Notes under the pieces: generated by a model
Database searches by the model: none
What the model was told of the DNA's origin: nothing
The model's input: the letters and a program-made list of their open reading frames with translations, nothing else
Made by a program: the position numbers and the translations under genes
Assembly: GCA_001779315.1 (NCBI GenBank)
Contig: MFJU01000004.1
Coordinates: 6,753-70,752 of the forward strand
Origin: Candidatus Gottesmanbacteria bacterium RIFCSPLOWO2_01_FULL_42_22
GTDB taxonomy: Bacteria > Patescibacteriota > Microgenomatia > 2-02-FULL-39-11
Direction of reading: 5' to 3'
DNA: 64,000 nucleotides
In this document: positions 20,644-54,118 of the stretch, piece after piece
Position numbering within the stretch: position 1 is the first letter of the stretch
How the letters are laid out: each line of letters begins with the position of its first letter

Positions 20644-20653
20644 ATAAAAAAAG

Positions 20654-20725
20654 TACCCCTGGGCGGAATCGAACCGCCATCAATCGCTTAGGACGCGACT
20701 ACTCTGTCCGTTGAGCTACAGGGGC
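20654..20725 (-). tRNA. tRNA-Arg (anticodon CCT).
   Basis: Cloverleaf folded by hand on the minus strand: acceptor GCCCCTG/CAGGGGT, D-arm GCTC..GAGT, anticodon stem GTCGC/GCGAT with loop GTCCTAA (U33, CCT, A37), T-arm GGCGG-TTCGATT-CCGCC, discriminator A. CCA is not encoded. Confidence 0.75.
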
Positions 20726-20808
20726 ATAAATTTGGAACTGCCAATATCCAACCTTAATATTTTATCATTCAGGTGATAAAATACGAAGAGACTCTGTGTC
20801 AGGGAAAT

Positions 20809-20885
20809 CGGGATGTAGCTCAGTTGGCTAGAGCGCTACGTTCGGGACGTAGAGGCCCGCGGTTCAAGTCCGCGCATCCCGACCA
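20809..20885 (+). tRNA. tRNA-Pro (anticodon CGG).
   Basis: CGGGATG/CATCCCG acceptor, D-arm GCTC-AGTTGGCTA-GAGC, anticodon stem CTACG/CGTAG with loop TTCGGGA (CGG, G37), T-arm CGCGG-TTCAAGT-CCGCG, discriminator A. CCA is encoded. A candidate promoter is TTAATA-17-TAAAAT at 20747..20775. Confidence 0.8.
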
Positions 20886-44805: not shown

Positions 44806-46854
44806 TTAGTCTAACTTGATTTTACCTAATTTGCTGGTAATTTTCTCTCTGATATAACCGCTGACTGTTTCGGAAATTATTGTCCGGACGTTGATACCCC
44901 ATGTCTTTTGCTTTTCTTCCAGCTTTGCATCGTCGTCAGTTGTTTCCTTATACACAGCCGGCACTGTCTCCTCGATTCTTCTGCTGATATCACCGACCAT
45001 CGTTGGAATTCTGTTTCTGTCACTGAAGTATCTCTCTGTCAAACTGGTCATACTGCTAAGCTGATCTCGCACATTACTAACAATCTTTCTTCTGGTTTCA
45101 CCTAATTTTGTAGTTTCCTCTCTCCTGACTGATTCAGTTGCCGGGACTGCCATCACCGGTACCTCTCCCCCCGAAAGCAAAGAAGCCATAACTCTCTCCT
45201 GCTTGTCATAAATTGATAATACCGACTTGGCTACCTTCCTCACTCCGTCCATCGGATTACCGGCTGTTTCAAGCCTAACGGCTAAATTTACCATTTCCTT
45301 TCTCCAGGTTTCTTTTCCTCCGACAGTATCGTCTTTTATAGCAGGAATTCCGTTCTTACCTTCCCAGACATCCTTCAAGAGGTTCACTTTAATTTGCAAT
45401 GCTTCCTGCTGGGATTTTAAGGTTGGTTCCCTTAACTGTGAAGCCGGACTTTGTATTTCCTCTGCTTGGCCGTCTTTTTGCACTTTTAAGGTACCGTCTT
45501 CACTCCGAAAGGTATATCCCTGTTGTGCCAGTTCTGAACAGCGGCTGTCAGCGGCGAATCCTTCGAAGATTCTGTTTCCGGTCAGTCCGATCATGTGACT
45601 TAGAGTTTGAACTAGCGCTTTTCTTTGTATTGGATCCTGAATTGCCGCATCACTTAACTCCAATCCAACCGCTTCGGCAATCAGCCTCATATTTACCTGT
45701 GTTTCCGCATCCTGGGGTTCCCTTAAATCACCGTCAGCAATTTGTCCCTGGAAATTTACGACAGCCACTGCGGTATCGAGGCGCTTTTGTGTGTGTTCTG
45801 CCAGTTTTACTTCAGCTTGAGTCTCTATGGCTTGTTTTATCCTGGCTTCAGCTTCAGGGGCCACCACCAAATTGCCGTCTTTATCTAATGTCGCTTCCGG
45901 ATCCCTCATCACTTGTTCTACCAGTTCATCATTAACCTCTAATTGCTTTTTTACATTGGGATTTACACTGGCAAAGTTGTCAACGGTTGTTTGCATTTTC
46001 TGTCCGTCGGCCGAATCTGCCAGCGTGATTTTATGGTACGCCAGTTCAGTTGAAGTGACCTTTTTTGTCCCATCATTTGCTTCTGACATTCCATCCTGCC
46101 AGTCAGTTGAGGCTAAATTTGCTTCTTGTAATACAATCTCTACTGCTTCTCTGGCTTTTAATGCCTGCCTGGCTTCACTAGTCAATCCACCTTTAACCAG
46201 TTCATTAACTGCTGCCCAGTTTTGACTGCCGTTAACAAATCCTGCCACATCACTATCTACCCTCATCCGGGAAGTTTCCGCCCCTGTCACCGCTCTTCTG
46301 GCCTTCCCTGTATTAATGTTACCGATTCTCTCATTATGCTCATCACTGACTTCCGCAACCCTCACCATTTGACCAGTCACTATTTCGGCGACAGTCGTAT
46401 CGACCACTTCAGTCCTTACTTTACCAGTGTAAGCTTTTGCCGCTTCCTGCCCAACCTCAGCAACTACCTCTGCCATGACTGCCGGCCTTGATGTCATCAT
46501 GGAGGGAACATCTCTTAATAATCTTTTCTTCTTTTTTCCGGCATTTGTTTCGGTAATCAGTTTAGCCTCTTCCACTTGCCCGGAAGCTGTTTCCAGTTTT
46601 TTTCCGGTTTCATCTGCCGCCCGTGCTTCTGTAGCGTTAGCCGCCAATACGGCTGATTCACTAGCCAGTCCCTGATTTTGCTCTTTTTCCTGTAATACTA
46701 CTTTCTTAAACATGTCAAGAGCTTCAGTCACTGGCTTGATTCTGGCTTCTCCAACCTGCACAGCCCCTTCAATTGGCTTTCTTAAGAATGCTCTTTCTGC
46801 TCTTGTTTTAAGTGCGCTAAATCTCTCTGCAATATTTGGTCTTATTTCTGACAT
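44806..46854 (-). CDS. Large hydrophilic Ala/Glu/Thr/Val-rich protein (682 aa), hypothetical, with no TM helix and no signal peptide.
   Basis: Long ORF with distinctly higher GC and different codon usage than its neighbours. I recognise no catalytic motifs. Confidence 0.5.
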   Translation of the reverse strand: MSEIRPNIAERFSALKTRAERAFLRKPIEGAVQVGEARIKPVTEALDMFKKVVLQEKEQNQGLASESAVLAANATEARAADETGKKLETASGQVEEAKLITETNAGKKKKRLLRDVPSMMTSRPAVMAEVVAEVGQEAAKAYTGKVRTEVVDTTVAEIVTGQMVRVAEVSDEHNERIGNINTGKARRAVTGAETSRMRVDSDVAGFVNGSQNWAAVNELVKGGLTSEARQALKAREAVEIVLQEANLASTDWQDGMSEANDGTKKVTSTELAYHKITLADSADGQKMQTTVDNFASVNPNVKKQLEVNDELVEQVMRDPEATLDKDGNLVVAPEAEARIKQAIETQAEVKLAEHTQKRLDTAVAVVNFQGQIADGDLREPQDAETQVNMRLIAEAVGLELSDAAIQDPIQRKALVQTLSHMIGLTGNRIFEGFAADSRCSELAQQGYTFRSEDGTLKVQKDGQAEEIQSPASQLREPTLKSQQEALQIKVNLLKDVWEGKNGIPAIKDDTVGGKETWRKEMVNLAVRLETAGNPMDGVRKVAKSVLSIYDKQERVMASLLSGGEVPVMAVPATESVRREETTKLGETRRKIVSNVRDQLSSMTSLTERYFSDRNRIPTMVGDISRRIEETVPAVYKETTDDDAKLEEKQKTWGINVRTIISETVSGYIREKITSKLGKIKLD

Positions 46855-48049: not shown

Positions 48050-50806
48050 TCACATTCTCTCGACAGTCTCAATCCCCAGAAGCCATAAACCTTTTTTGAT
48101 TATTTTTGAGGTTGTATGCGTTAAAGCCAGCCTGAATAGGGAAGCTTGATTTTGCTTTTGATTGCCCAAAATCAGGTGTTTACTGTAAAAAACATTGTAC
48201 TTCTGAGCCAAACCGTATAAATAGGCAGCTATTGCCGAAGGCAAAAAATTCCTGCCGGCCTCTAAAACGACCTCTTCAAACTGATAAAACGTTCTCAACA
48301 GATCTTTTTCTTCTTCATTTAACTTTTTTCCATACTTAATACTTGATACCATATACTTAATACCGCGATCTTCGGCCTTACGAAGCACACTCCGGCATCT
48401 GGCATAGGTATATTGCAAATACGGCCCGCTGTCGCCCTCGAAATTGACCGACTTTTCCAAATCAAAAACAATGTCAGCCGGCAGAGCTACTTTCAAAAGC
48501 GAATATTTTATGGCGGCCACCGCAGTTTTCTCCAAAATAAGCTCGGATTCCGCTTTTGTGTAGTTGTCTGATCCGGTATTATGCAGCCTCTCTTTCAGCT
48601 TCGTTTTAACCATTTCCAGGAGCGCTTCTCCGGATATTATCTTGCCGGTCCTGGAGCTCATTTTGCCTTCCGGCAGTTTGACGAGGCCGTGTCCGAGATG
48701 TCTGGTTTTAGAAGCCAAATCAGGCTTGACGAGTGACAGCACCTTCAATAAAACCTGGAAATACTCATTGATCTCTTTGGCCGTAACGATCATCGAAAAA
48801 TCATACTGGAAGTCTTTATATTTAGTCGGCGCCAACCCCAACTCTTTAGTTTCATATGTCGGCAAACCTAATGCGTTGATAAATACACGGGTGTGAAGAC
48901 CGTATTTTTCTCCCCGGAAGACTGTCGCTCCCTCGCTTTTTTCGAAAATACCCTTTTCCAAACCTTCTTTGACAATCTGCAGGCCGTATTCACCGACAAT
49001 CGATTCCGGGTAATAGTAATCAAATTTTGCTCCCAGACGCCTATAAATGCTTTCAAAATAAGCTAAACTCCACTCCCGGCCCTTTTGAAACAGACTGCCC
49101 ACTTCCTGAATTTCTTTTTCATCTGCTTTGACGAATTGCCGGTAATTAATCCGGGGCTCCCATTTCATCTTTTTCTGCATGTAATCCTGGGCGGCAACAA
49201 AGACCAGATAGTTTATCTTATTCATCTCTTCCTTAGCTTTCTCATCCTCTTCGAAAGCGGTCGCACCAATTGCATAAGCTTCACCCAGATACTTCACTTT
49301 TTGAGTTAAGGATTTATTATCCATGTTTTTGGCCAGCTTCTTCATCCCCCAGATTGATTTGGCCACATGCATGCCGACATCGCCGAAATAATTCGCCCGT
49401 GCAACCTTGGCGCCCAACTCTTCATTTATCCTGGCAATAGATTCCCCTACGCTGTTACTGTATACGTGACCGATGTGAAACTCCTTAAAGGGATTGGGGT
49501 CGGTAAACTCTATAATCATCTTTTTACCTGTTTTCACGCTCTTTCCATAATCTGGCGCTCGTCCCATTTGACTGATAAGGTATTTTTCAGCCAGGAAGAT
49601 GTTGATAAAGCCGGGAAGCACTGCTTTTACATTCTCCAGGACATCTGATACTATAAATTTACTACCAGTATAATCATTACTATAAGTACTATATGACATC
49701 GATTGACCGCTTCCTATATACTTATTTAGTTGTTGGCTTATCTTTTCCGCTAATTCAATAGGTTTGACTTTTATTTTAGAAGCCGTAATCATGGCTAGAT
49801 TAGATGAATAATCCCCATAGTTTTTGCTGGAAGGATGCTCGAGTTTTATATCCCCGTATCTGATTCCAGAGTCCGGATAAAGTTTTTGAAAGGCCGAAAG
49901 AAGGGCGGATTTGATTTTTTTATCCGTGGAAACTTCGGCGTTTTCCAGTAAAGGATTGACCGCGGTTTTACTTTTTTCCGGGACTTTTTTTACTTTTTTC
50001 TCCCTTTCCCCGGATTTGATTAAGTCCTGTTTATTTTCTTTTAAATGTTCTTTTTTTGCCCGTTCAAAGGAAAACTCGATTGACTGTTTGTTTTGGGATA
50101 GAATTGCGGATTCGGTCCCGGCCTTAAAATGCATCTTTATATGTTGCTCCGCCTCTTCCAGAGCCTCGCTCAACTTCTCACGGGATAATGACGGCGCTTT
50201 TTCGACAACCAGGACGGCGTTGACCGTCTCTTTATCAATCTTTGTCCTGTCAGCCTCCCGCCAGTTCCATTTGCGGCAGATAAAGCCCTCCTCGTCCTGG
50301 TAGATGACTTCCCCGGGATCGCACTTTTCAGGCTGTGTTGAGCCGATAGTTATCCCCTCCTCATTGCCGGAAGCAAAAGTCAGCCGGATATCACCTTTAA
50401 CCTTATCCAGGTCCTCTGCTCCGGCCGGGAGGTGAAATTTTAATGACAGGTAGTTATAGAGATCTACTAGCTTGTTGATATGCGGTATTTCCTTATTACC
50501 GGCTCTAGCCCGTCTCAACAATGATTCAACCGAAGAGCGATAATCTTTGGGATGAGAGCCAAACGAGCGGTATATCTCGCGCCACTGGGAAATTTCCGGC
50601 AGGCTACCTATCTCCGTCTCGGCTAAAAGCATCTTCTGATTGGCCTCCTCTATCCGCAGCAGCTTCAAAATCTCCTCATTCCGGCCTGTATTATCCATCC
50701 CTTTGATGACAATCACCCCGATCTCAACCCCCGGATATTTCTCAAAAATTTGATTGATTATGATAAATTTCATCTTGACTTGCCTCTTTTTATTTGATAT
50801 ATTCAA
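48050..50806 (-). CDS. argS: Arginyl-tRNA synthetase with an N-terminal B3/4-domain (COG3382-like) fusion of ~290 aa.
   Basis: The ArgS core is FTDPNPFKEFHIGH (HIGH), an Arg_tRNA_synt_N-like segment from ~residue 300, and a DALR anticodon-binding C-terminus. The N-terminal LVDLYNYLSLKFHLPAGAEDLDKVKGDIRLTFA...NAVLVVEKA matches the PheT B3/4 domain pattern (Nyv..e.G.P.HafDldk..g.i..r.A). The track start is a TTG; ATG at 50773 is an alternative. Confidence 0.85.
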   Translation of the reverse strand: MNISNKKRQVKMKFIIINQIFEKYPGVEIGVIVIKGMDNTGRNEEILKLLRIEEANQKMLLAETEIGSLPEISQWREIYRSFGSHPKDYRSSVESLLRRARAGNKEIPHINKLVDLYNYLSLKFHLPAGAEDLDKVKGDIRLTFASGNEEGITIGSTQPEKCDPGEVIYQDEEGFICRKWNWREADRTKIDKETVNAVLVVEKAPSLSREKLSEALEEAEQHIKMHFKAGTESAILSQNKQSIEFSFERAKKEHLKENKQDLIKSGEREKKVKKVPEKSKTAVNPLLENAEVSTDKKIKSALLSAFQKLYPDSGIRYGDIKLEHPSSKNYGDYSSNLAMITASKIKVKPIELAEKISQQLNKYIGSGQSMSYSTYSNDYTGSKFIVSDVLENVKAVLPGFINIFLAEKYLISQMGRAPDYGKSVKTGKKMIIEFTDPNPFKEFHIGHVYSNSVGESIARINEELGAKVARANYFGDVGMHVAKSIWGMKKLAKNMDNKSLTQKVKYLGEAYAIGATAFEEDEKAKEEMNKINYLVFVAAQDYMQKKMKWEPRINYRQFVKADEKEIQEVGSLFQKGREWSLAYFESIYRRLGAKFDYYYPESIVGEYGLQIVKEGLEKGIFEKSEGATVFRGEKYGLHTRVFINALGLPTYETKELGLAPTKYKDFQYDFSMIVTAKEINEYFQVLLKVLSLVKPDLASKTRHLGHGLVKLPEGKMSSRTGKIISGEALLEMVKTKLKERLHNTGSDNYTKAESELILEKTAVAAIKYSLLKVALPADIVFDLEKSVNFEGDSGPYLQYTYARCRSVLRKAEDRGIKYMVSSIKYGKKLNEEEKDLLRTFYQFEEVVLEAGRNFLPSAIAAYLYGLAQKYNVFYSKHLILGNQKQNQASLFRLALTHTTSKIIKKGLWLLGIETVERM

Positions 50807-50828: not shown

Positions 50829-51341
50829 CTAATTTAGGGTCTCCCTCTTTTTTTTATACTCTAGTAAATACTTCAGGCTCCCAAAATCAATATGTTTGTC
50901 CCCCACTATCTTTTTTAACTCTTTCGCTGTTCTTTTTGGAGATGAAATAATAATTATTTCCTTCTTCTTTGAAATCAAATATTTAAAAAGCGGCGCAAAA
51001 TCTCCATCTCCGGTCAGAACAATGGCTTTGTGATATTCTTTTATCATTAAAAGCATATCCATGGTTAAATCGACATCACAATTTGCTTTTGTGCGCGTTC
51101 CGAATCTCTTGATTTCCTTTACTCTTAAAATATAACCGAACTGTTTTAGTTTCTTCAAAAAATTCTCTTTATGTATATTTTTTGAATCCTTCCCATAATA
51201 AAAGAAAGCTTTTTTAACCGAAAATTTATACTTTAAATACCTGATTAATTTTTTCTGGTCGATATACCAGCCTTCCGCTTTGGCACCGTAAATTATGTTT
51301 GAAGCGTCTACAAAGGCAAAACAACCGATCTTTCTTTTCAT
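50829..51341 (-). CDS. NYN/LabA-like (PIN-fold) domain protein.
   Basis: AFVDASNI, TGDGDFAPL and related motifs are typical of NYN domains. It sits between argG and argS in the same operon. Confidence 0.65.
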   Translation of the reverse strand: MKRKIGCFAFVDASNIIYGAKAEGWYIDQKKLIRYLKYKFSVKKAFFYYGKDSKNIHKENFLKKLKQFGYILRVKEIKRFGTRTKANCDVDLTMDMLLMIKEYHKAIVLTGDGDFAPLFKYLISKKKEIIIISSPKRTAKELKKIVGDKHIDFGSLKYLLEYKKKRETLN

Positions 51342-51359: not shown

Positions 51360-52613
51360 CTACTTAATCTGTTTCTGGTTGGAAAGCCTCATCTGCAGAG
51401 AATATATCTCTATAAATCCGGCGGAACAATTGGTATTAAAGGCAAAACCGTCACTATTGGAAAATGAGGCATAATCCAGCGCATACGGAGATTCCAAAGC
51501 AACTATTGTCGCCTGGCCTTTATACAACCTTACTGTAACTTTTCCGATTACTTTTTTATTAACCTCCTCATTGAAACAATTGATAGCCTTCATTACAGGA
51601 TCAAACCATAAAGCACCATAACATAAATAACCCCACTTTATGTCCAGTTCCGACTTCAACTGGTTCAGTTTTCTGGTCGAGACATACTTTTCCAGATCCT
51701 TATGGGCGGCAATAATGACCGCAGCAGCGGGCATTTCATAAACGCCTCTGGTCTTGAGGCCAACCAGCCTGTCTTCCAAAAGATGGACCACTCCGACTCC
51801 ATGTTTTCCAACAATCACATTCAGCTTCTGGACAAGATCGGCCAATTTATACTTTTTGCCATTCAGGCTGACCGGTAAACCATTCTCAAATTCCAGAACG
51901 ATTACTTCCTCTTTATCCGGCGCTTTGCTGGCTAAAGTATAAGTTGTCAGAAATTTTTCCAGTTGGGGAATTTCACTGGGGATTTCCACCTCACCTCCTT
52001 CCCAGGTCATGCCCCACATATTGTCATCGACACTATAGGGAAAATCAATTGAAGAGGGAATGGGAATCTTATTTTTCTGGGCATATTTGATTTCCTCACT
52101 CCTATCCATCGACCATTCCCTGACAGGTGCGATGATTTTTATTTTGGGATCATGGGTCAGAATATAGCCTTCCAGCCTGACCTGGTCATTGCCTTTTCCG
52201 GTACAGCCGTGGGCTATCGTCTCTACTTCGAGCTTCTTGGCGGCTTCGACAGTTTTGACAGCCATCAAAGCCCTACCTATAGGTGTCGACAAATGGTAAT
52301 TTCCCTGGTATGAGGCGTTGGCCTTGATTGCCAAAGAAAGATAACTTTCGGCAAACTCGTCTTTGACATTCCAGACTAGGGCTTTTTTAGCCCCAAACCT
52401 CACTGCTTTCTGGCGGATGGCTTCCAGATTATCATGTTGCTGCCCCAAATCAAGGGTCAGCGTATAAACTTCCGCCTTGTATTGGTCCTGAATCCACTTC
52501 AGCATGACGCTGGTATCCAGGCCTCCCGAATACAGAAGCAGTACTTTTTTGACTTCTCCGTAATTTCCTTCATAACTTGAGACTTTTTTATATAAATGGT
52601 TATTTTTTAGCAT
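51360..52613 (-). CDS. argG: Argininosuccinate synthase.
   Basis: VLLLYSGGLDTSV (PP-loop SGGxDTS) is present. The length is 417 aa. Confidence 0.9.
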   Translation of the reverse strand: MLKNNHLYKKVSSYEGNYGEVKKVLLLYSGGLDTSVMLKWIQDQYKAEVYTLTLDLGQQHDNLEAIRQKAVRFGAKKALVWNVKDEFAESYLSLAIKANASYQGNYHLSTPIGRALMAVKTVEAAKKLEVETIAHGCTGKGNDQVRLEGYILTHDPKIKIIAPVREWSMDRSEEIKYAQKNKIPIPSSIDFPYSVDDNMWGMTWEGGEVEIPSEIPQLEKFLTTYTLASKAPDKEEVIVLEFENGLPVSLNGKKYKLADLVQKLNVIVGKHGVGVVHLLEDRLVGLKTRGVYEMPAAAVIIAAHKDLEKYVSTRKLNQLKSELDIKWGYLCYGALWFDPVMKAINCFNEEVNKKVIGKVTVRLYKGQATIVALESPYALDYASFSNSDGFAFNTNCSAGFIEIYSLQMRLSNQKQIK

Positions 52614-52657
52614 AATATTAAAATTAATAAATCTTTATATAATTCTACTTCCAGACT

Positions 52658-53845
52658 TCATCTCTGCCGGTATCGCGCGGCAATTCTTCTGTATGCCTGC
52701 CTGAATGAATGGCCTTTTTTTACTAATTTATAAGCCTCCTCTGCCGCATGCAATTCGGGTGTATCAGCCTGTTCTAATTTTTCTTTGACCGGTTTCAAAT
52801 TCTTAACCAGAATCAGCATCATTTCCAGTGACTCTAAAGTCTGTTCTATACTGTCAAACAAAGGCCTTTTGATTTCCTGGAAATCCCTGTGATAACCGGA
52901 CATCAAATTGGCTGCCAAGCCGGTAATATTTATGTAATTGGCTGTCAGGCGGTGAACTTTACTCCTGAGAAGCTCGGCTATATCCAAATTCTTTTTATGG
53001 GGCATGATGGAACTGCCGCTGGTTAAAGACTTATCAATCTCTATAAAACCCAAAGTATCTGAAGAAAAGAACAACAAATCAGAGACAAATTTATTGATAG
53101 TCAAGGCTAATGAGATTAAAGAGGAAACAACCACAGCCTCGGATTTACCGCGGCTGTTTTGGCAATATAGAGCATTCTCAATAATAGCAGAGAAACCGAT
53201 ATCAGAAGCAGCAGCTGATCTGGGATAATCAAGAGGCAGACCATAGCCGGCACCTGTGCCTAACGCTGATTTATCTGTAATCTTTAAAGCAGCTTTCATC
53301 TGAATTACGTCATCCTGGAAACTCTCGGAGAAACTATGTAGCCAGGCTCCGAAAGTATAAGGCATGGCTTTTCTCGTATGGGTGAATCCGGGCATAAATA
53401 ACTTTGAATATTTATCTCCCGATTGATCGATCAGTCTCATCGCAGCCTTTACTTTTTTGATGATTTCCTCCAAATTTTCTTTGATATATAACCTGGTAGC
53501 CGTTGCCACCTGGTCGTTTCTGGATCTGGCGGTATGGATCTTCTCTCCGGCCAAACCAAGTTTTTCTGTCAGGTGCGCTTCGATTGCCGTATGCATGTCC
53601 TCATCACCCATTTTCAAATGAAATTTCCCTTGCTCAACTAGAATAGTTAGACTATTGAGACAATCCAAAACCTGCCTCAATTCTTTTTTTCCGTAAATGC
53701 CCATCAGAAACAGGCTCTTAGCATGGGCTTTTGTACCTAAAAGGTCATATTTTAGCAGTTTTTGATCCATGGCAAGATCTTCCTTTGTCTCAAAGGCTTC
53801 GACTTTTTTATCCAATTCCCAGTTTGTCTGCCAAAGTTTTTTCAT
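52658..53845 (-). CDS. argH: Argininosuccinate lyase.
   Basis: GSSIMPHKKNLDIAEL is the fumarate-lyase signature GSSxMPxKxN. The N-terminal MKKLWQTNW aligns with the ArgH start (M.LWGGRF). The track's longer ORF to 54034 starts at TTG and would run through the T-box/terminator, so it is rejected. Confidence 0.85.
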   Translation of the reverse strand: MKKLWQTNWELDKKVEAFETKEDLAMDQKLLKYDLLGTKAHAKSLFLMGIYGKKELRQVLDCLNSLTILVEQGKFHLKMGDEDMHTAIEAHLTEKLGLAGEKIHTARSRNDQVATATRLYIKENLEEIIKKVKAAMRLIDQSGDKYSKLFMPGFTHTRKAMPYTFGAWLHSFSESFQDDVIQMKAALKITDKSALGTGAGYGLPLDYPRSAAASDIGFSAIIENALYCQNSRGKSEAVVVSSLISLALTINKFVSDLLFFSSDTLGFIEIDKSLTSGSSIMPHKKNLDIAELLRSKVHRLTANYINITGLAANLMSGYHRDFQEIKRPLFDSIEQTLESLEMMLILVKNLKPVKEKLEQADTPELHAAEEAYKLVKKGHSFRQAYRRIAARYRQR

Positions 53846-54118
53846 ATAAAAACTCCCGTCTCCTGCTACAAAATATTTGTAACAAAGGACGGGAGTTCCC
53901 GTGGTGCCACCTTTATTCTCAACTGCACAATAAAACTTCTGTTTTTTACCCGCCGTAGCTTTATGCGAAGGTGGGTAAGCCTTGACAGAAGTCACAGTTG
54001 ACTCAATTTTATGAAACCTACTTAGTCCCGCCAATCGGCGGGGCTTTTCTTCAGTTCCTGGCTCCGGGGCTCGTCCTCCGATTCGGAGGGTTCCCCTTCA
54101 TCGCCTATTTGGATGTCA
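53846..54118 (-). promoter_or_regulatory. T-box riboswitch leader (tRNA-sensing transcription attenuator) for the argH-argG-NYN-argS operon. Its promoter -10 TATAAT (minus strand) is at 54125..54130.
   Basis: Minus strand at + coordinates 53898..53914: AAAGGUGGCACCACGGG compares with the T-box consensus AGGGUGGNACCGCGG. The antiterminator is AAAG[GUGGCACC]ACGGG-AACU-CCCGU-CUUU. The alternative perfect 9-bp terminator is ACUCCCGUC...GACGGGAGU (53852..53896), followed by UUUUUAU and directly by the argH ATG (53843..53845). The Stem I base resembles glyQS (GGCGAUGAAG ... CUGAAGAAAAGCC). Further GC hairpins lie at 54024..54043 and 54076..54090. Confidence 0.55.

What the first reader, a model, noticed from the sequence alone, without database searches (positions are those of the whole stretch)
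48050..50806. Arginyl-tRNA synthetase fused to an N-terminal B3/4 (PheT-like, COG3382) domain
The 918-aa ArgS is ~300 aa longer than usual. Its extra N-terminal region matches the B3/4 domain pattern (NY..L.f.lPagAeDLDkv.G.i.l..A...E ... vl.vE.A). This domain is otherwise known from PheRS beta subunits and stand-alone B3/4 proteins implicated in tRNA binding or editing. I do not recognise a B3/4-ArgS fusion as a described architecture. It might provide trans-editing or extra tRNA affinity in a reduced genome. It also sits in the operon governed by the putative T-box.
Basis: partly seen in the sequence, partly recalled or inferred. Interest (0 to 1): 0.6.

Follow-up and report, generated by a model that had tools for sequence, protein, structure and literature searches.

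The report
ArgRS with built-in CtdA editing domain
This candidate-phyla bacterium's arginyl-tRNA synthetase, an enzyme class described in 2023 as having no known editing domain, carries at its front end a complete copy of CtdA, the recently discovered enzyme that strips the toxic arginine mimic canavanine off tRNA, so it is probably a self-proofreading ArgRS that I could not find described in the literature.

Summary
Window 48050..50806 (-) encodes one ORF; the likely start is the ATG at 50773, giving 907 aa. It has a significant Pfam B3_4 hit N-terminal to a complete ArgRS (Arg_tRNA_synt_N, catalytic core with HIGH and KMSSR, DALR). The N-terminal module is not PheT-like. It is a full-length homolog of CtdA, the stand-alone canavanyl-tRNA(Arg) deacylase (PDB 9f7e E=1e-27; Foldseek TM 0.84-0.87; PheRS-beta only TMq 0.52-0.61). 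All nine mutagenesis-tested or pocket CtdA residues are kept or conservatively replaced. The module is as conserved as the ArgRS body (48% vs 48%), while the Lys-rich disordered linker is not (18%). The fusion recurs in at least 69 proteins from Microgenomates-type CPR bacteria. In other genomes ctdA is a separate gene directly upstream of argS, a Rosetta-stone pair. The same module is also fused to class I and class II LysRS. The gene ends an argH-argG-NYN-argS cluster behind a sub-threshold but credible Arg T-box. Best reading: a tethered post-transfer editing domain for mischarged tRNA(Arg). Substrate identity and activity are inferred, not shown. No paper found describes this architecture. 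It is a new variant of a known kind.

The parts
48050..50773 (-). ctdA::argS fusion gene, 907 aa from the ATG at 50773 (the mechanical ORF extends to a TTG at 50806)
   Evidence: P0001 is 100% identical and 907 aa
50069..50773 (-). CtdA-like deacylase module (aa 1-235): complete B3/B4 fold including the CtdA-specific helical insert
   Evidence: Pfam B3_4 89 bits; PDB 9f7e CtdA E=1e-27; AF2 pLDDT 93.7; Foldseek TM 0.84-0.87 to 9f7e and 9mkl
50453..50458 (-). Y106-N107, equivalents of CtdA Y104/N105 (catalytically important; proposed oxyanion hole or water positioning)
   Evidence: PMC12268091 and PMC12449066 mutagenesis; Y in 67/71 and N in 70/71 fused domains
50414..50422 (-). G118-A119-E120, equivalents of CtdA G116/G117/E118 (pocket)
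   Evidence: G in 69/71 and E in 67/71 fused domains
50255..50278 (-). C166...E173 (CRKWNWRE), equivalents of CtdA C166 (specificity modulator) and Q173 (Glu in active C. perfringens CtdA)
   Evidence: PMC12449066 section 27
50201..50209 (-). V189-V190-E191, equivalents of CtdA I189 and E191 (pocket floor)
   Evidence: PMC12268091
49919..50068 (-). Lys/Glu-rich flexible linker (aa 236-285; aa 242-268 predicted disordered)
   Evidence: AF2 pLDDT below 50 for 242-268; 18% mean identity against 48% for the flanking modules; length 23-224 aa across fusions
49721..49918 (-). ArgRS N-terminal additional domain (Arg_tRNA_synt_N; binds the tRNA D-loop in known ArgRS)
48461..49549 (-). ArgRS class I catalytic domain, with HIGH at 49466..49477 and KMSSR at 48650..48664
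   Evidence: Foldseek TMt 0.76-0.86 to solved ArgRS
48053..48418 (-). DALR anticodon-binding domain
50829..51341 (-). NYN-domain gene between argG and argS; no homolog detected in the other loci searched
51360..52613 (-). argG (argininosuccinate synthase)
   Evidence: conserved next to ctdA/argS in L001-L003, L006-L009, L022 and L077
52658..53845 (-). argH-like lyase (Lyase_1); the ATG at 53845 follows the T-box terminator
53882..54110 (-). T-box-like leader with a short Stem I: CGA (54071..54073) in the specifier position, T-box sequence AAAGGUGGCACCACG, then a terminator hairpin at 53848..53900 followed by U5
   Evidence: Rfam RF00230 45.9 bits (below gathering score 93), E=8.5e-8, full model length; sequence; folds

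Best explanation
The gene encodes a catalytically complete arginyl-tRNA synthetase. Its N-terminus carries, on a flexible Lys-rich tether of about 50 residues, a complete CtdA-type aminoacyl-tRNA deacylase. ArgRS itself has no hydrolytic editing site and is known to charge tRNA(Arg) with near-cognate analogues such as canavanine. The fused module most likely hydrolyses such mischarged aminoacyl-tRNA(Arg) as or just after it leaves the synthetic site. This would be post-transfer editing, either in cis or as tethered trans editing. Correctly made Arg-tRNA(Arg) would be rejected by the pocket and shielded by the ArgRS body and EF-Tu. Fusion guarantees 1:1 expression and a high local concentration of the editor next to the only enzyme that makes its substrate. 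Shown here: domain identity, fold, retention of the functional residues, purifying selection on the module, recurrence of the fusion, split ctdA-argS operons, and the arginine-pathway operon context. Inferred: that the module is an active deacylase, that its substrate is on tRNA(Arg), that the substrate is canavanine or another Arg analogue, and whether editing occurs in cis or in trans.
For: (1) The N-terminal 235 aa match solved CtdA end to end: phmmer E=1e-27 (9f7e) and 2e-23 (9mkl). Foldseek gives TM 0.84-0.87 and rmsd 2.7-3.1 A over 226-232 columns, against TMq 0.52-0.61 for PheRS-beta. (2) The residues shown by mutagenesis or docking to matter in CtdA (Y104, N105, G116, G117, E118, C166, Q173, I189, E191; PMC12449066, PMC12268091) are Y, N, G, A, E, C, E, V, E here. 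Q173E is the state in active C. perfringens CtdA. Across 71 ArgRS-fused domains, N is kept in 70, G in 69, Y in 67, E120 in 67 and an acidic residue at 191 in 71. (3) The module is as conserved as the essential ArgRS body (48% vs 48% mean identity) while the linker is not (18%). (4) The ArgRS part is intact: TIGR00456 above cutoff, HIGH and KMSSR present. (5) The fusion is present in 69 proteins and in 8 of the 80 best species-genome loci. In L005-L009 and L012 a stand-alone ctdA lies directly upstream of argS with ATGA overlaps or 7-16 nt gaps. (6) The domain tree and the 30% vs 48% module/body discordance of subtype B indicate more than one fusion or replacement event with ArgRS. (7) Published biochemistry: CtdA deacylates Can-tRNA(Arg), and ArgRS and EF-Tu protect Arg-tRNA(Arg) (PMC10018355, PMC12449066).
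Against: No activity data exist for any fused or CPR-type CtdA. The source lineage (Gottesmanbacteria-like; the closest named relatives are groundwater and sediment MAGs) is not an obvious canavanine habitat. The six-residue pocket signature NGECEV is shared by domains fused to LysRS, so the pocket as currently understood does not predict a tRNA(Arg)-specific or canavanine-specific substrate. G117 is Ala here. How CtdA recognises tRNA is unknown (PMC12449066). The relative placement of the two modules in the AF2 model could not be inspected, so cis reach is inferred from linker length only. Close relatives with syntenic argS lack the module (P0022), so it is dispensable.
Confidence: 0.7

Rival explanations
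1. The module is an active deacylase but its physiological substrate is not canavanyl-tRNA(Arg). It would be a broader editor of tRNAs mischarged with basic or ureido analogues, for example citrulline, ornithine, homoarginine or thialysine, possibly arising from the organism's own arginine pathway or from scavenged amino-acid pools.
For: The same module, with the same pocket signature, is fused to class I and class II LysRS at either end. The gene sits in a conserved argG/argH (citrulline to arginine) cluster. CPR and DPANN genomes dominate the closest relatives. The CtdA authors themselves suggest other substrates for organisms not exposed to canavanine (PMC12449066, discussion).
Against: Every pocket residue implicated in canavanine recognition, including Cys166, is retained. 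No CtdA homolog has been shown to act on any other aminoacyl group. This is a refinement of the best explanation rather than a contradiction of it.
Confidence: 0.3
2. The module has lost or never had hydrolytic function in this context. It would serve as an extra tRNA-binding or tRNA-retention domain that raises ArgRS affinity for tRNA(Arg) in a reduced genome.
For: Appended RNA-binding domains on aaRS are common. The CtdA surface around the pocket is positively charged and proposed to bind the CCA end (PMC12268091). The linker is Lys-rich.
Against: Catalytic and pocket residues that are irrelevant to simple RNA binding (Y106, N107, G118, E120, C166, E191) are nearly invariant over 71 fusions. 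The stand-alone form in split operons keeps them too.
Confidence: 0.08
3. The module deliberately hydrolyses correctly charged Arg-tRNA(Arg). It would act as a brake or sensor that tunes charging levels and so feeds back on the Arg T-box controlling the operon.
For: Wild-type CtdA weakly deacylates Arg-tRNA(Arg) at high concentration (PMC12449066), and fusion creates a high local concentration. The operon appears to be governed by a tRNA-sensing T-box.
Against: A futile ATP-burning cycle is unlikely in an energy-poor CPR cell. [quoted passage not shown] Most fused loci show no T-box hit.
Confidence: 0.04
4. The fusion is an artefact: a mis-assembly, a sequencing frameshift joining two genes, or a decaying pseudogene.
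For: Split ctdA and argS genes exist in some genomes.
Against: The open frame is uninterrupted. An identical protein is found on 2 contigs and in 22 member sequences. There are 69 independent fused proteins with a variable linker but conserved modules. The full-length model is confident.
Confidence: 0.01

Closest known systems
CtdA, canavanyl-tRNA(Arg) deacylase (P. canavaninivorans 9f7e; S. enterica 9mkl; CtdA-1 clade)
   Same: Same fold over the whole length, including the CtdA-specific helical insert (TM 0.84-0.87). About 25-28% identity, E=1e-27. Equivalents of Y104, N105, G116, E118, C166, I189 and E191 are retained or conservatively replaced; Q173 is Glu, as in C. perfringens CtdA. It is functionally linked to ArgRS and tRNA(Arg).
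   Different: Published CtdAs are described as single-domain, free-standing trans-editing proteins. Here the module is covalently joined to ArgRS through a disordered linker. G117 is Ala. The host is a CPR bacterium rather than a rhizosphere or enteric organism. Activity is untested.
PheRS beta-subunit B3/B4 editing domain (Pfam B3_4, PF03483)
   Same: Same superfamily and the same Pfam model. It is an editing domain integrated in cis into a synthetase, and it shares the conserved Asn (E. coli N254 = CtdA N105).
   Different: Only fold-level similarity (sequence E about 0.5; TMq 0.52-0.61). PheRS specificity residues are not shared according to PMC12449066. It sits inside the non-catalytic beta subunit of a class II enzyme and edits Tyr/m-Tyr-tRNA(Phe). 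Here the module is at the N-terminus of a class I monomeric enzyme.
Canonical bacterial ArgRS (e.g. E. coli 5yym, T. thermophilus 1iq0)
   Same: Arg_tRNA_synt_N, Rossmann core with HIGH and KMSSR, and DALR domains. TMt 0.76-0.86. TIGR00456 above cutoff.
   Different: Canonical ArgRS has no editing domain (Hauth 2023, PMC10018355: 'no editing domain in ArgRS ... described'). This one is about 285 residues longer at the N-terminus.
Synthetases with appended or autonomous editing-module pairs (ProRS INS / ProXp / YbaK; AlaRS / AlaX; ThrRS / ThrRS-ed)
   Same: The same evolutionary pattern: one hydrolytic module exists both free-standing and fused to the cognate synthetase.
   Different: Unrelated folds. 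For ArgRS (and LysRS) no such pairing is reported in the literature I could search.

Membership tests
CtdA family (canavanyl-tRNA(Arg) deacylase, CtdA-1 type) | B3/B4 fold with the CtdA-specific helical insert (alpha2-alpha4, about residues 28-92) | tested here: met
   AF2 N-domain pLDDT 93.7 with helices at 33-49, 59-70 and 81-91. Foldseek TM 0.84-0.87 over 226-232 columns of the 226-231-residue CtdA chains.
CtdA family (canavanyl-tRNA(Arg) deacylase, CtdA-1 type) | Significant full-length sequence homology to characterised CtdA | tested here: met
   phmmer E=1e-27 (9f7e, query 25-219 / chain 17-208) and 2e-23 (9mkl)
CtdA family (canavanyl-tRNA(Arg) deacylase, CtdA-1 type) | Functional residues Y104, N105, G116, E118, C166, Q173 (Q/E), I189, E191 | tested here: met
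   Y106, N107, G118, E120, C166, E173, V189, E191. The presence of Cys166 is the CtdA-1 hallmark according to PMC12449066.
CtdA family (canavanyl-tRNA(Arg) deacylase, CtdA-1 type) | Selective hydrolysis of canavanyl-tRNA(Arg) | not testable with these tools
   Requires deacylation assays
CtdA family (canavanyl-tRNA(Arg) deacylase, CtdA-1 type) | Free-standing single-domain protein (as the family is described in the literature) | tested here: not met
   Fused to ArgRS in one 907-aa ORF. This is the point of novelty rather than grounds for exclusion from the homologous family.
Arginyl-tRNA synthetase (class I, TIGR00456) | Arg_tRNA_synt_N + class Id catalytic core + DALR; equivalog model above cutoff | tested here: met
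   Pfam; TIGR00456 316 bits against 261.65; TMt 0.76-0.86 to solved ArgRS
Arginyl-tRNA synthetase (class I, TIGR00456) | HIGH and KMSKS-type signature motifs | tested here: met
   HIGH at aa 433-436 and KMSSR at aa 704-708, conserved in almost all of the 60 homologs listed (KMSSR not matched in P0027 and the truncated P0059)
PheRS-beta B3/B4 editing domain | Specific sequence and structural similarity to the PheT B3/B4 domain and its specificity residues | tested here: not met
   PheRS-beta E about 0.5; pheT_bact 19.9 bits against a cutoff of 402; TMq 0.52-0.61. Only the Asn is shared, according to PMC12449066.
T-box leader (RF00230) governing the operon | Rfam gathering score | tested here: not met
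   45.9 bits against 93, though E=8.5e-8 and the full model length is matched
T-box leader (RF00230) governing the operon | GA motif, specifier loop with cognate codon, T-box sequence, terminator/antiterminator | tested here: inconclusive
   GA motif, ACGAG 3' internal loop (CGA = Arg), AAAGGUGGCACCACG, and a terminator of -30.3 kcal/mol followed by U5. Stem I is only about 21 nt where the model has 74. In L003 the putative codon is predicted to be paired.

The most novel reading that the evidence does not exclude
The CtdA-type module is a mobile post-transfer editing cassette that CPR bacteria and DPANN archaea have repeatedly bolted onto the two synthetases for basic amino acids: ArgRS, class I LysRS and class II LysRS, at either terminus. 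That would make ArgRS and LysRS, neither of which has a described post-transfer editing domain, genuine editing synthetases in these lineages. Its natural targets would not be plant canavanine but analogues met by scavenging symbionts or produced by their own argG/argH pathway, such as citrulline, ornithine or O-ureidohomoserine-derived canavanine.
Probability: 0.3. Interest if true: 0.8.

Novelty: new variant of a known kind. Interest (0 to 1): 0.62.

Why it matters
ArgRS is one of the synthetases regarded as having no editing function, and the first tRNA(Arg) editing factor, CtdA, was reported only in 2023 as a strictly stand-alone enzyme. A natural CtdA-ArgRS fusion, backed by split ctdA-argS operons, gives independent genomic (Rosetta-stone) evidence that CtdA-type proteins work together with ArgRS. 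It offers a ready-made system for studying how CtdA engages tRNA, which is currently unknown. It extends the family into CPR and DPANN organisms, where canavanine exposure is not obvious, so it raises the question of what these enzymes really edit. The parallel LysRS fusions suggest the same question applies to lysine. All of this is directly testable with standard aminoacylation and deacylation assays.

Full report
OBSERVATION. The window carries an uninterrupted ORF at 48050..50806 on the minus strand, 918 aa from the first in-frame TTG. The ATG at 50773 is preceded by AAGAGG and gives a 907-aa product identical to database protein P0001. I use that numbering below. In 918-aa numbering, Pfam finds B3_4 at residues 74-204 (89.4 bits, cutoff 29.3, E=2.6e-25), followed by Arg_tRNA_synt_N, the class Id catalytic domain and DALR_1. 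NCBIfam's argS equivalog TIGR00456 scores above its cutoff (316 vs 261.65 bits). HIGH (aa 433-436) and KMSSR (aa 704-708) are present.

WHAT THE N-TERMINAL DOMAIN IS. Against all PDB sequences, the first about 250 residues hit CtdA, the canavanyl-tRNA(Arg) deacylase of Pseudomonas canavaninivorans (9f7e, E=1e-27, query 25-219 vs chain 17-208), and the S. enterica enzyme (9mkl, E=2e-23). PheRS beta subunits reach only E about 0.5.

An AlphaFold2 model of the full protein is confident, with mean pLDDT 89.3 and pTM 0.70. It shows a compact module at residues 1-235, a disordered stretch at 242-268, and a complete ArgRS from about residue 275. A model of the isolated module has pLDDT 93.7 and pTM 0.90. 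Foldseek aligns it with both solved CtdA structures over essentially their whole length (TM 0.84-0.87, rmsd 2.7-3.1 A, E about 1e-20). PheRS-beta B3/B4 domains give TMq 0.52-0.61 and E about 1e-8. The rest of the protein superposes on solved ArgRS structures (TMt 0.76-0.86). So the module is a whole CtdA, including the helical insert that distinguishes CtdA from the PheRS editing domain (PMC12449066, PMC12268091). It is not a generic PheT-like domain.

FUNCTIONAL RESIDUES. Two papers define residues needed for CtdA activity or lining its pocket: Y104, N105, G116, G117, E118, C166, Q173, I189 and E191 (PMC12268091; PMC12449066 sections 24, 25, 27). An HMM-guided alignment maps these to Y106, N107, G118, A119, E120, C166, E173, V189 and E191. 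Glu at the Q173 position is the state in the active C. perfringens enzyme (PMC12449066). Across 71 ArgRS-fused domains the counts are: N 70, G118 69, Y 67, E120 67, acidic residue at position 191 in all 71, Cys166 54 with Thr 12, and E/Q at position 173 in 69.

SELECTION. In 39 fused homologs aligned to this protein, mean identity is 48% in the CtdA module, 48% in the ArgRS body and 18% in the linker. Linker length ranges from 23 to 224 residues (median 50), and its composition is Lys-rich. The module is therefore under constraint comparable to that on an essential enzyme, and the linker behaves as a flexible tether.

DISTRIBUTION AND ROSETTA-STONE EVIDENCE. Of the 120 best ArgRS homologs, 41 have the fused architecture, named where named as Gottesmanbacteria, Woesebacteria or Patescibacteria. 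An exhaustive HMMER search with the module alone finds 3118 clusters at 50% identity. Among the top 150 there are 108 stand-alone proteins of about 234 aa, 23 N-terminal ArgRS fusions and 8 LysRS fusions.

A scan of one genome per species finds at least 571 genomes with a relative, heavily CPR and DPANN among the best 80. In those 80 loci, 8 are ArgRS fusions: Gottesmanbacteria, Collierbacteria, Microgenomates and others. In L005-L009 and L012 a stand-alone ctdA lies immediately upstream of argS on the same strand, with ATGA stop/start overlaps or 7-16 nt gaps. These are real two-gene operons, not frameshifted fusions. L022 has a degraded copy in the same position. These adjacent stand-alone genes cluster with the subtype-A fused domains in a rough neighbour-joining tree. 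Close relatives can also lack the module entirely, as in P0022 in a syntenic neighbourhood and in P0028.

TWO SUBTYPES. Most fusions, including this one, carry GFICR[RK]WNWRE. A second group (P0017, P0030-36, P0039, P0040, P0063 and others) carries D[LV]STRALNWRQ, with Thr at the Cys166 position. Their ArgRS bodies are as similar to this protein as those of subtype A (47-52%), but their CtdA modules are only about 30% identical and sit elsewhere in the tree. This suggests module replacement or independent fusion, and possibly different specificity, given the role of residue 166 (PMC12449066).

OTHER PARTNERS. The same module is fused to class II LysRS (N- and C-terminal), class I LysRS (N- and C-terminal), GNAT acetyltransferases and a GatA-like amidase fragment. 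It also occurs in tandem ahead of ArgRS. Repeated joining to the synthetases for the two basic amino acids argues for a translation-quality-control role. However, the six-residue pocket signature does not differ between ArgRS and LysRS fusions, so substrate identity cannot be read from it.

CONTEXT. On the minus strand the order is: T-box-like leader (53882..54110), argH-like lyase (52658..53845), argG (51360..52613), a NYN-domain gene (50829..51341), and ctdA::argS. The gaps are 44, 18 and 55 nt. No terminator-like site was found on that strand between the leader's terminator and argS.

The leader scores 45.9 bits, below Rfam's gathering score of 93, but E=8.5e-8 with the full model length matched. 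It shows a GA motif, a short Stem I whose 3' internal loop reads A-CGA-G (an Arg codon followed by a purine), the T-box sequence AAAGGUGGCACCACG, and a terminator of -30.3 kcal/mol followed by U5 directly before the argH ATG.

argG and argH flank ctdA/argS in L001-L003 (fused), in L006-L009 and L022 (split), and in L077. L003 also has a T-box-like hit upstream of argG (38.9 bits), though its putative codon is predicted to be paired.

MECHANISM. Established knowledge: ArgRS lacks an editing site and charges canavanine. CtdA hydrolyses Can-tRNA(Arg) selectively. ArgRS and EF-Tu protect Arg-tRNA(Arg), whereas EF-Tu does not protect Can-tRNA(Arg) (PMC10018355, PMC12449066). On this basis I infer that the fused module performs post-transfer editing of mischarged tRNA(Arg) while tethered to the enzyme that produces it. 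Activity, substrate, and cis versus tethered-trans operation are all inferred. The rivals are a broader or different analogue substrate, a non-catalytic tRNA-binding role, a deliberate Arg-tRNA brake, and an artefact. They are weighed in the structured fields.

NOVELTY. The three CtdA papers never use the words 'fusion' or 'fused', and they describe a single-domain, stand-alone enzyme. Hauth et al. state that no editing domain in ArgRS was known. Further searches found nothing on CtdA or B3/4 joined to ArgRS or LysRS. Public annotations call these proteins simply arginine--tRNA ligase. The architecture is visible to any Pfam scan, so it is undescribed rather than undiscoverable. I rate it a new variant of a known kind, with interest 0.62.

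Noticed in passing
window 53848..54110 (-): T-box-like leader with an unusually short Stem I (about 21 nt where the Rfam model has 74). CGA is in the specifier position, the T-box sequence is canonical, and a 21-bp terminator sits directly upstream of argH. It scores below the Rfam gathering score (45.9 vs 93 bits). A similar hit lies upstream of argG in L003 (265..473). This may be a short-Stem-I arginine T-box class in Microgenomates.
   Followed up: partly
P0144, P0177, P0158, P0187, P0260 (class II LysRS); P0153, P0149 (class I LysRS); loci L044, L054, L057, L075, L078: The same CtdA-like module is fused to lysyl-tRNA synthetases of both classes, at either the N- or the C-terminus, in CPR bacteria and in archaea. 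I found no paper describing a LysRS with a post-transfer editing domain.
   Followed up: partly
P0176, P0205 (GNAT + CtdA-like); P0133 (CtdA-like + GatA-like amidase fragment); P0132 (two tandem CtdA-like modules + ArgRS): Further architectures of the module. The GNAT fusions are intriguing because a canavanine-selective GNAT acetyltransferase has been reported (PMC10416765, seen only in a search listing).
   Followed up: no
P0017, P0030-P0036, P0039, P0040, P0063 (subtype B); P0043/P0044: A second type of ArgRS-fused module has Thr instead of the specificity-modulating Cys166, and Gln at position 173. The module is only about 30% identical to this one although the ArgRS bodies are about 48% identical. 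This suggests module swapping or a changed specificity.
   Followed up: partly
window 50829..51341 (-): A NYN-domain (predicted RNase) gene is inserted between argG and ctdA::argS. No homolog was found in any of the other fused or split loci, so it appears specific to this genome's operon.
   Followed up: partly
window 51360..53845 (-); L001-L003, L006-L009, L022, L077, L081: argG and argH (citrulline to arginine) are conserved next to argS in several CPR lineages. L081 has argF-argH-M20 peptidase-argS without ctdA. Arginine salvage genes and argS seem to form a recurrent unit in Microgenomates.
   Followed up: partly
L017 6568..7983 and L026 6526..7915: In the two Collierbacteria loci, a class II lysS follows the ctdA::argS fusion directly on the same strand.
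   Followed up: no
L005, L007, L008, L009, L022, L029, L042, L054, L064 (record titles): Several loci whose gene content looks CPR-like (ctdA-argS operon, argG about 66-70% identical to the window's in L007-L009 and L022) are titled 'uncultured Gammaproteobacteria' in TPA MAG records. The taxonomic labels of these bins are probably unreliable.
   Followed up: no
window 20653..20885: Divergently oriented tRNA-Arg(CCU) and tRNA-Pro(CGG) genes. The tRNA-Arg(CCU) has discriminator A, whereas the T-box UGGC would pair with a G discriminator. The T-box would in any case sense a CGA-reading isoacceptor, which is not in the window.
   Followed up: no
window 44806..46854 (-): A 682-aa ORF downstream of the cluster has no Pfam hit.
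   Followed up: no
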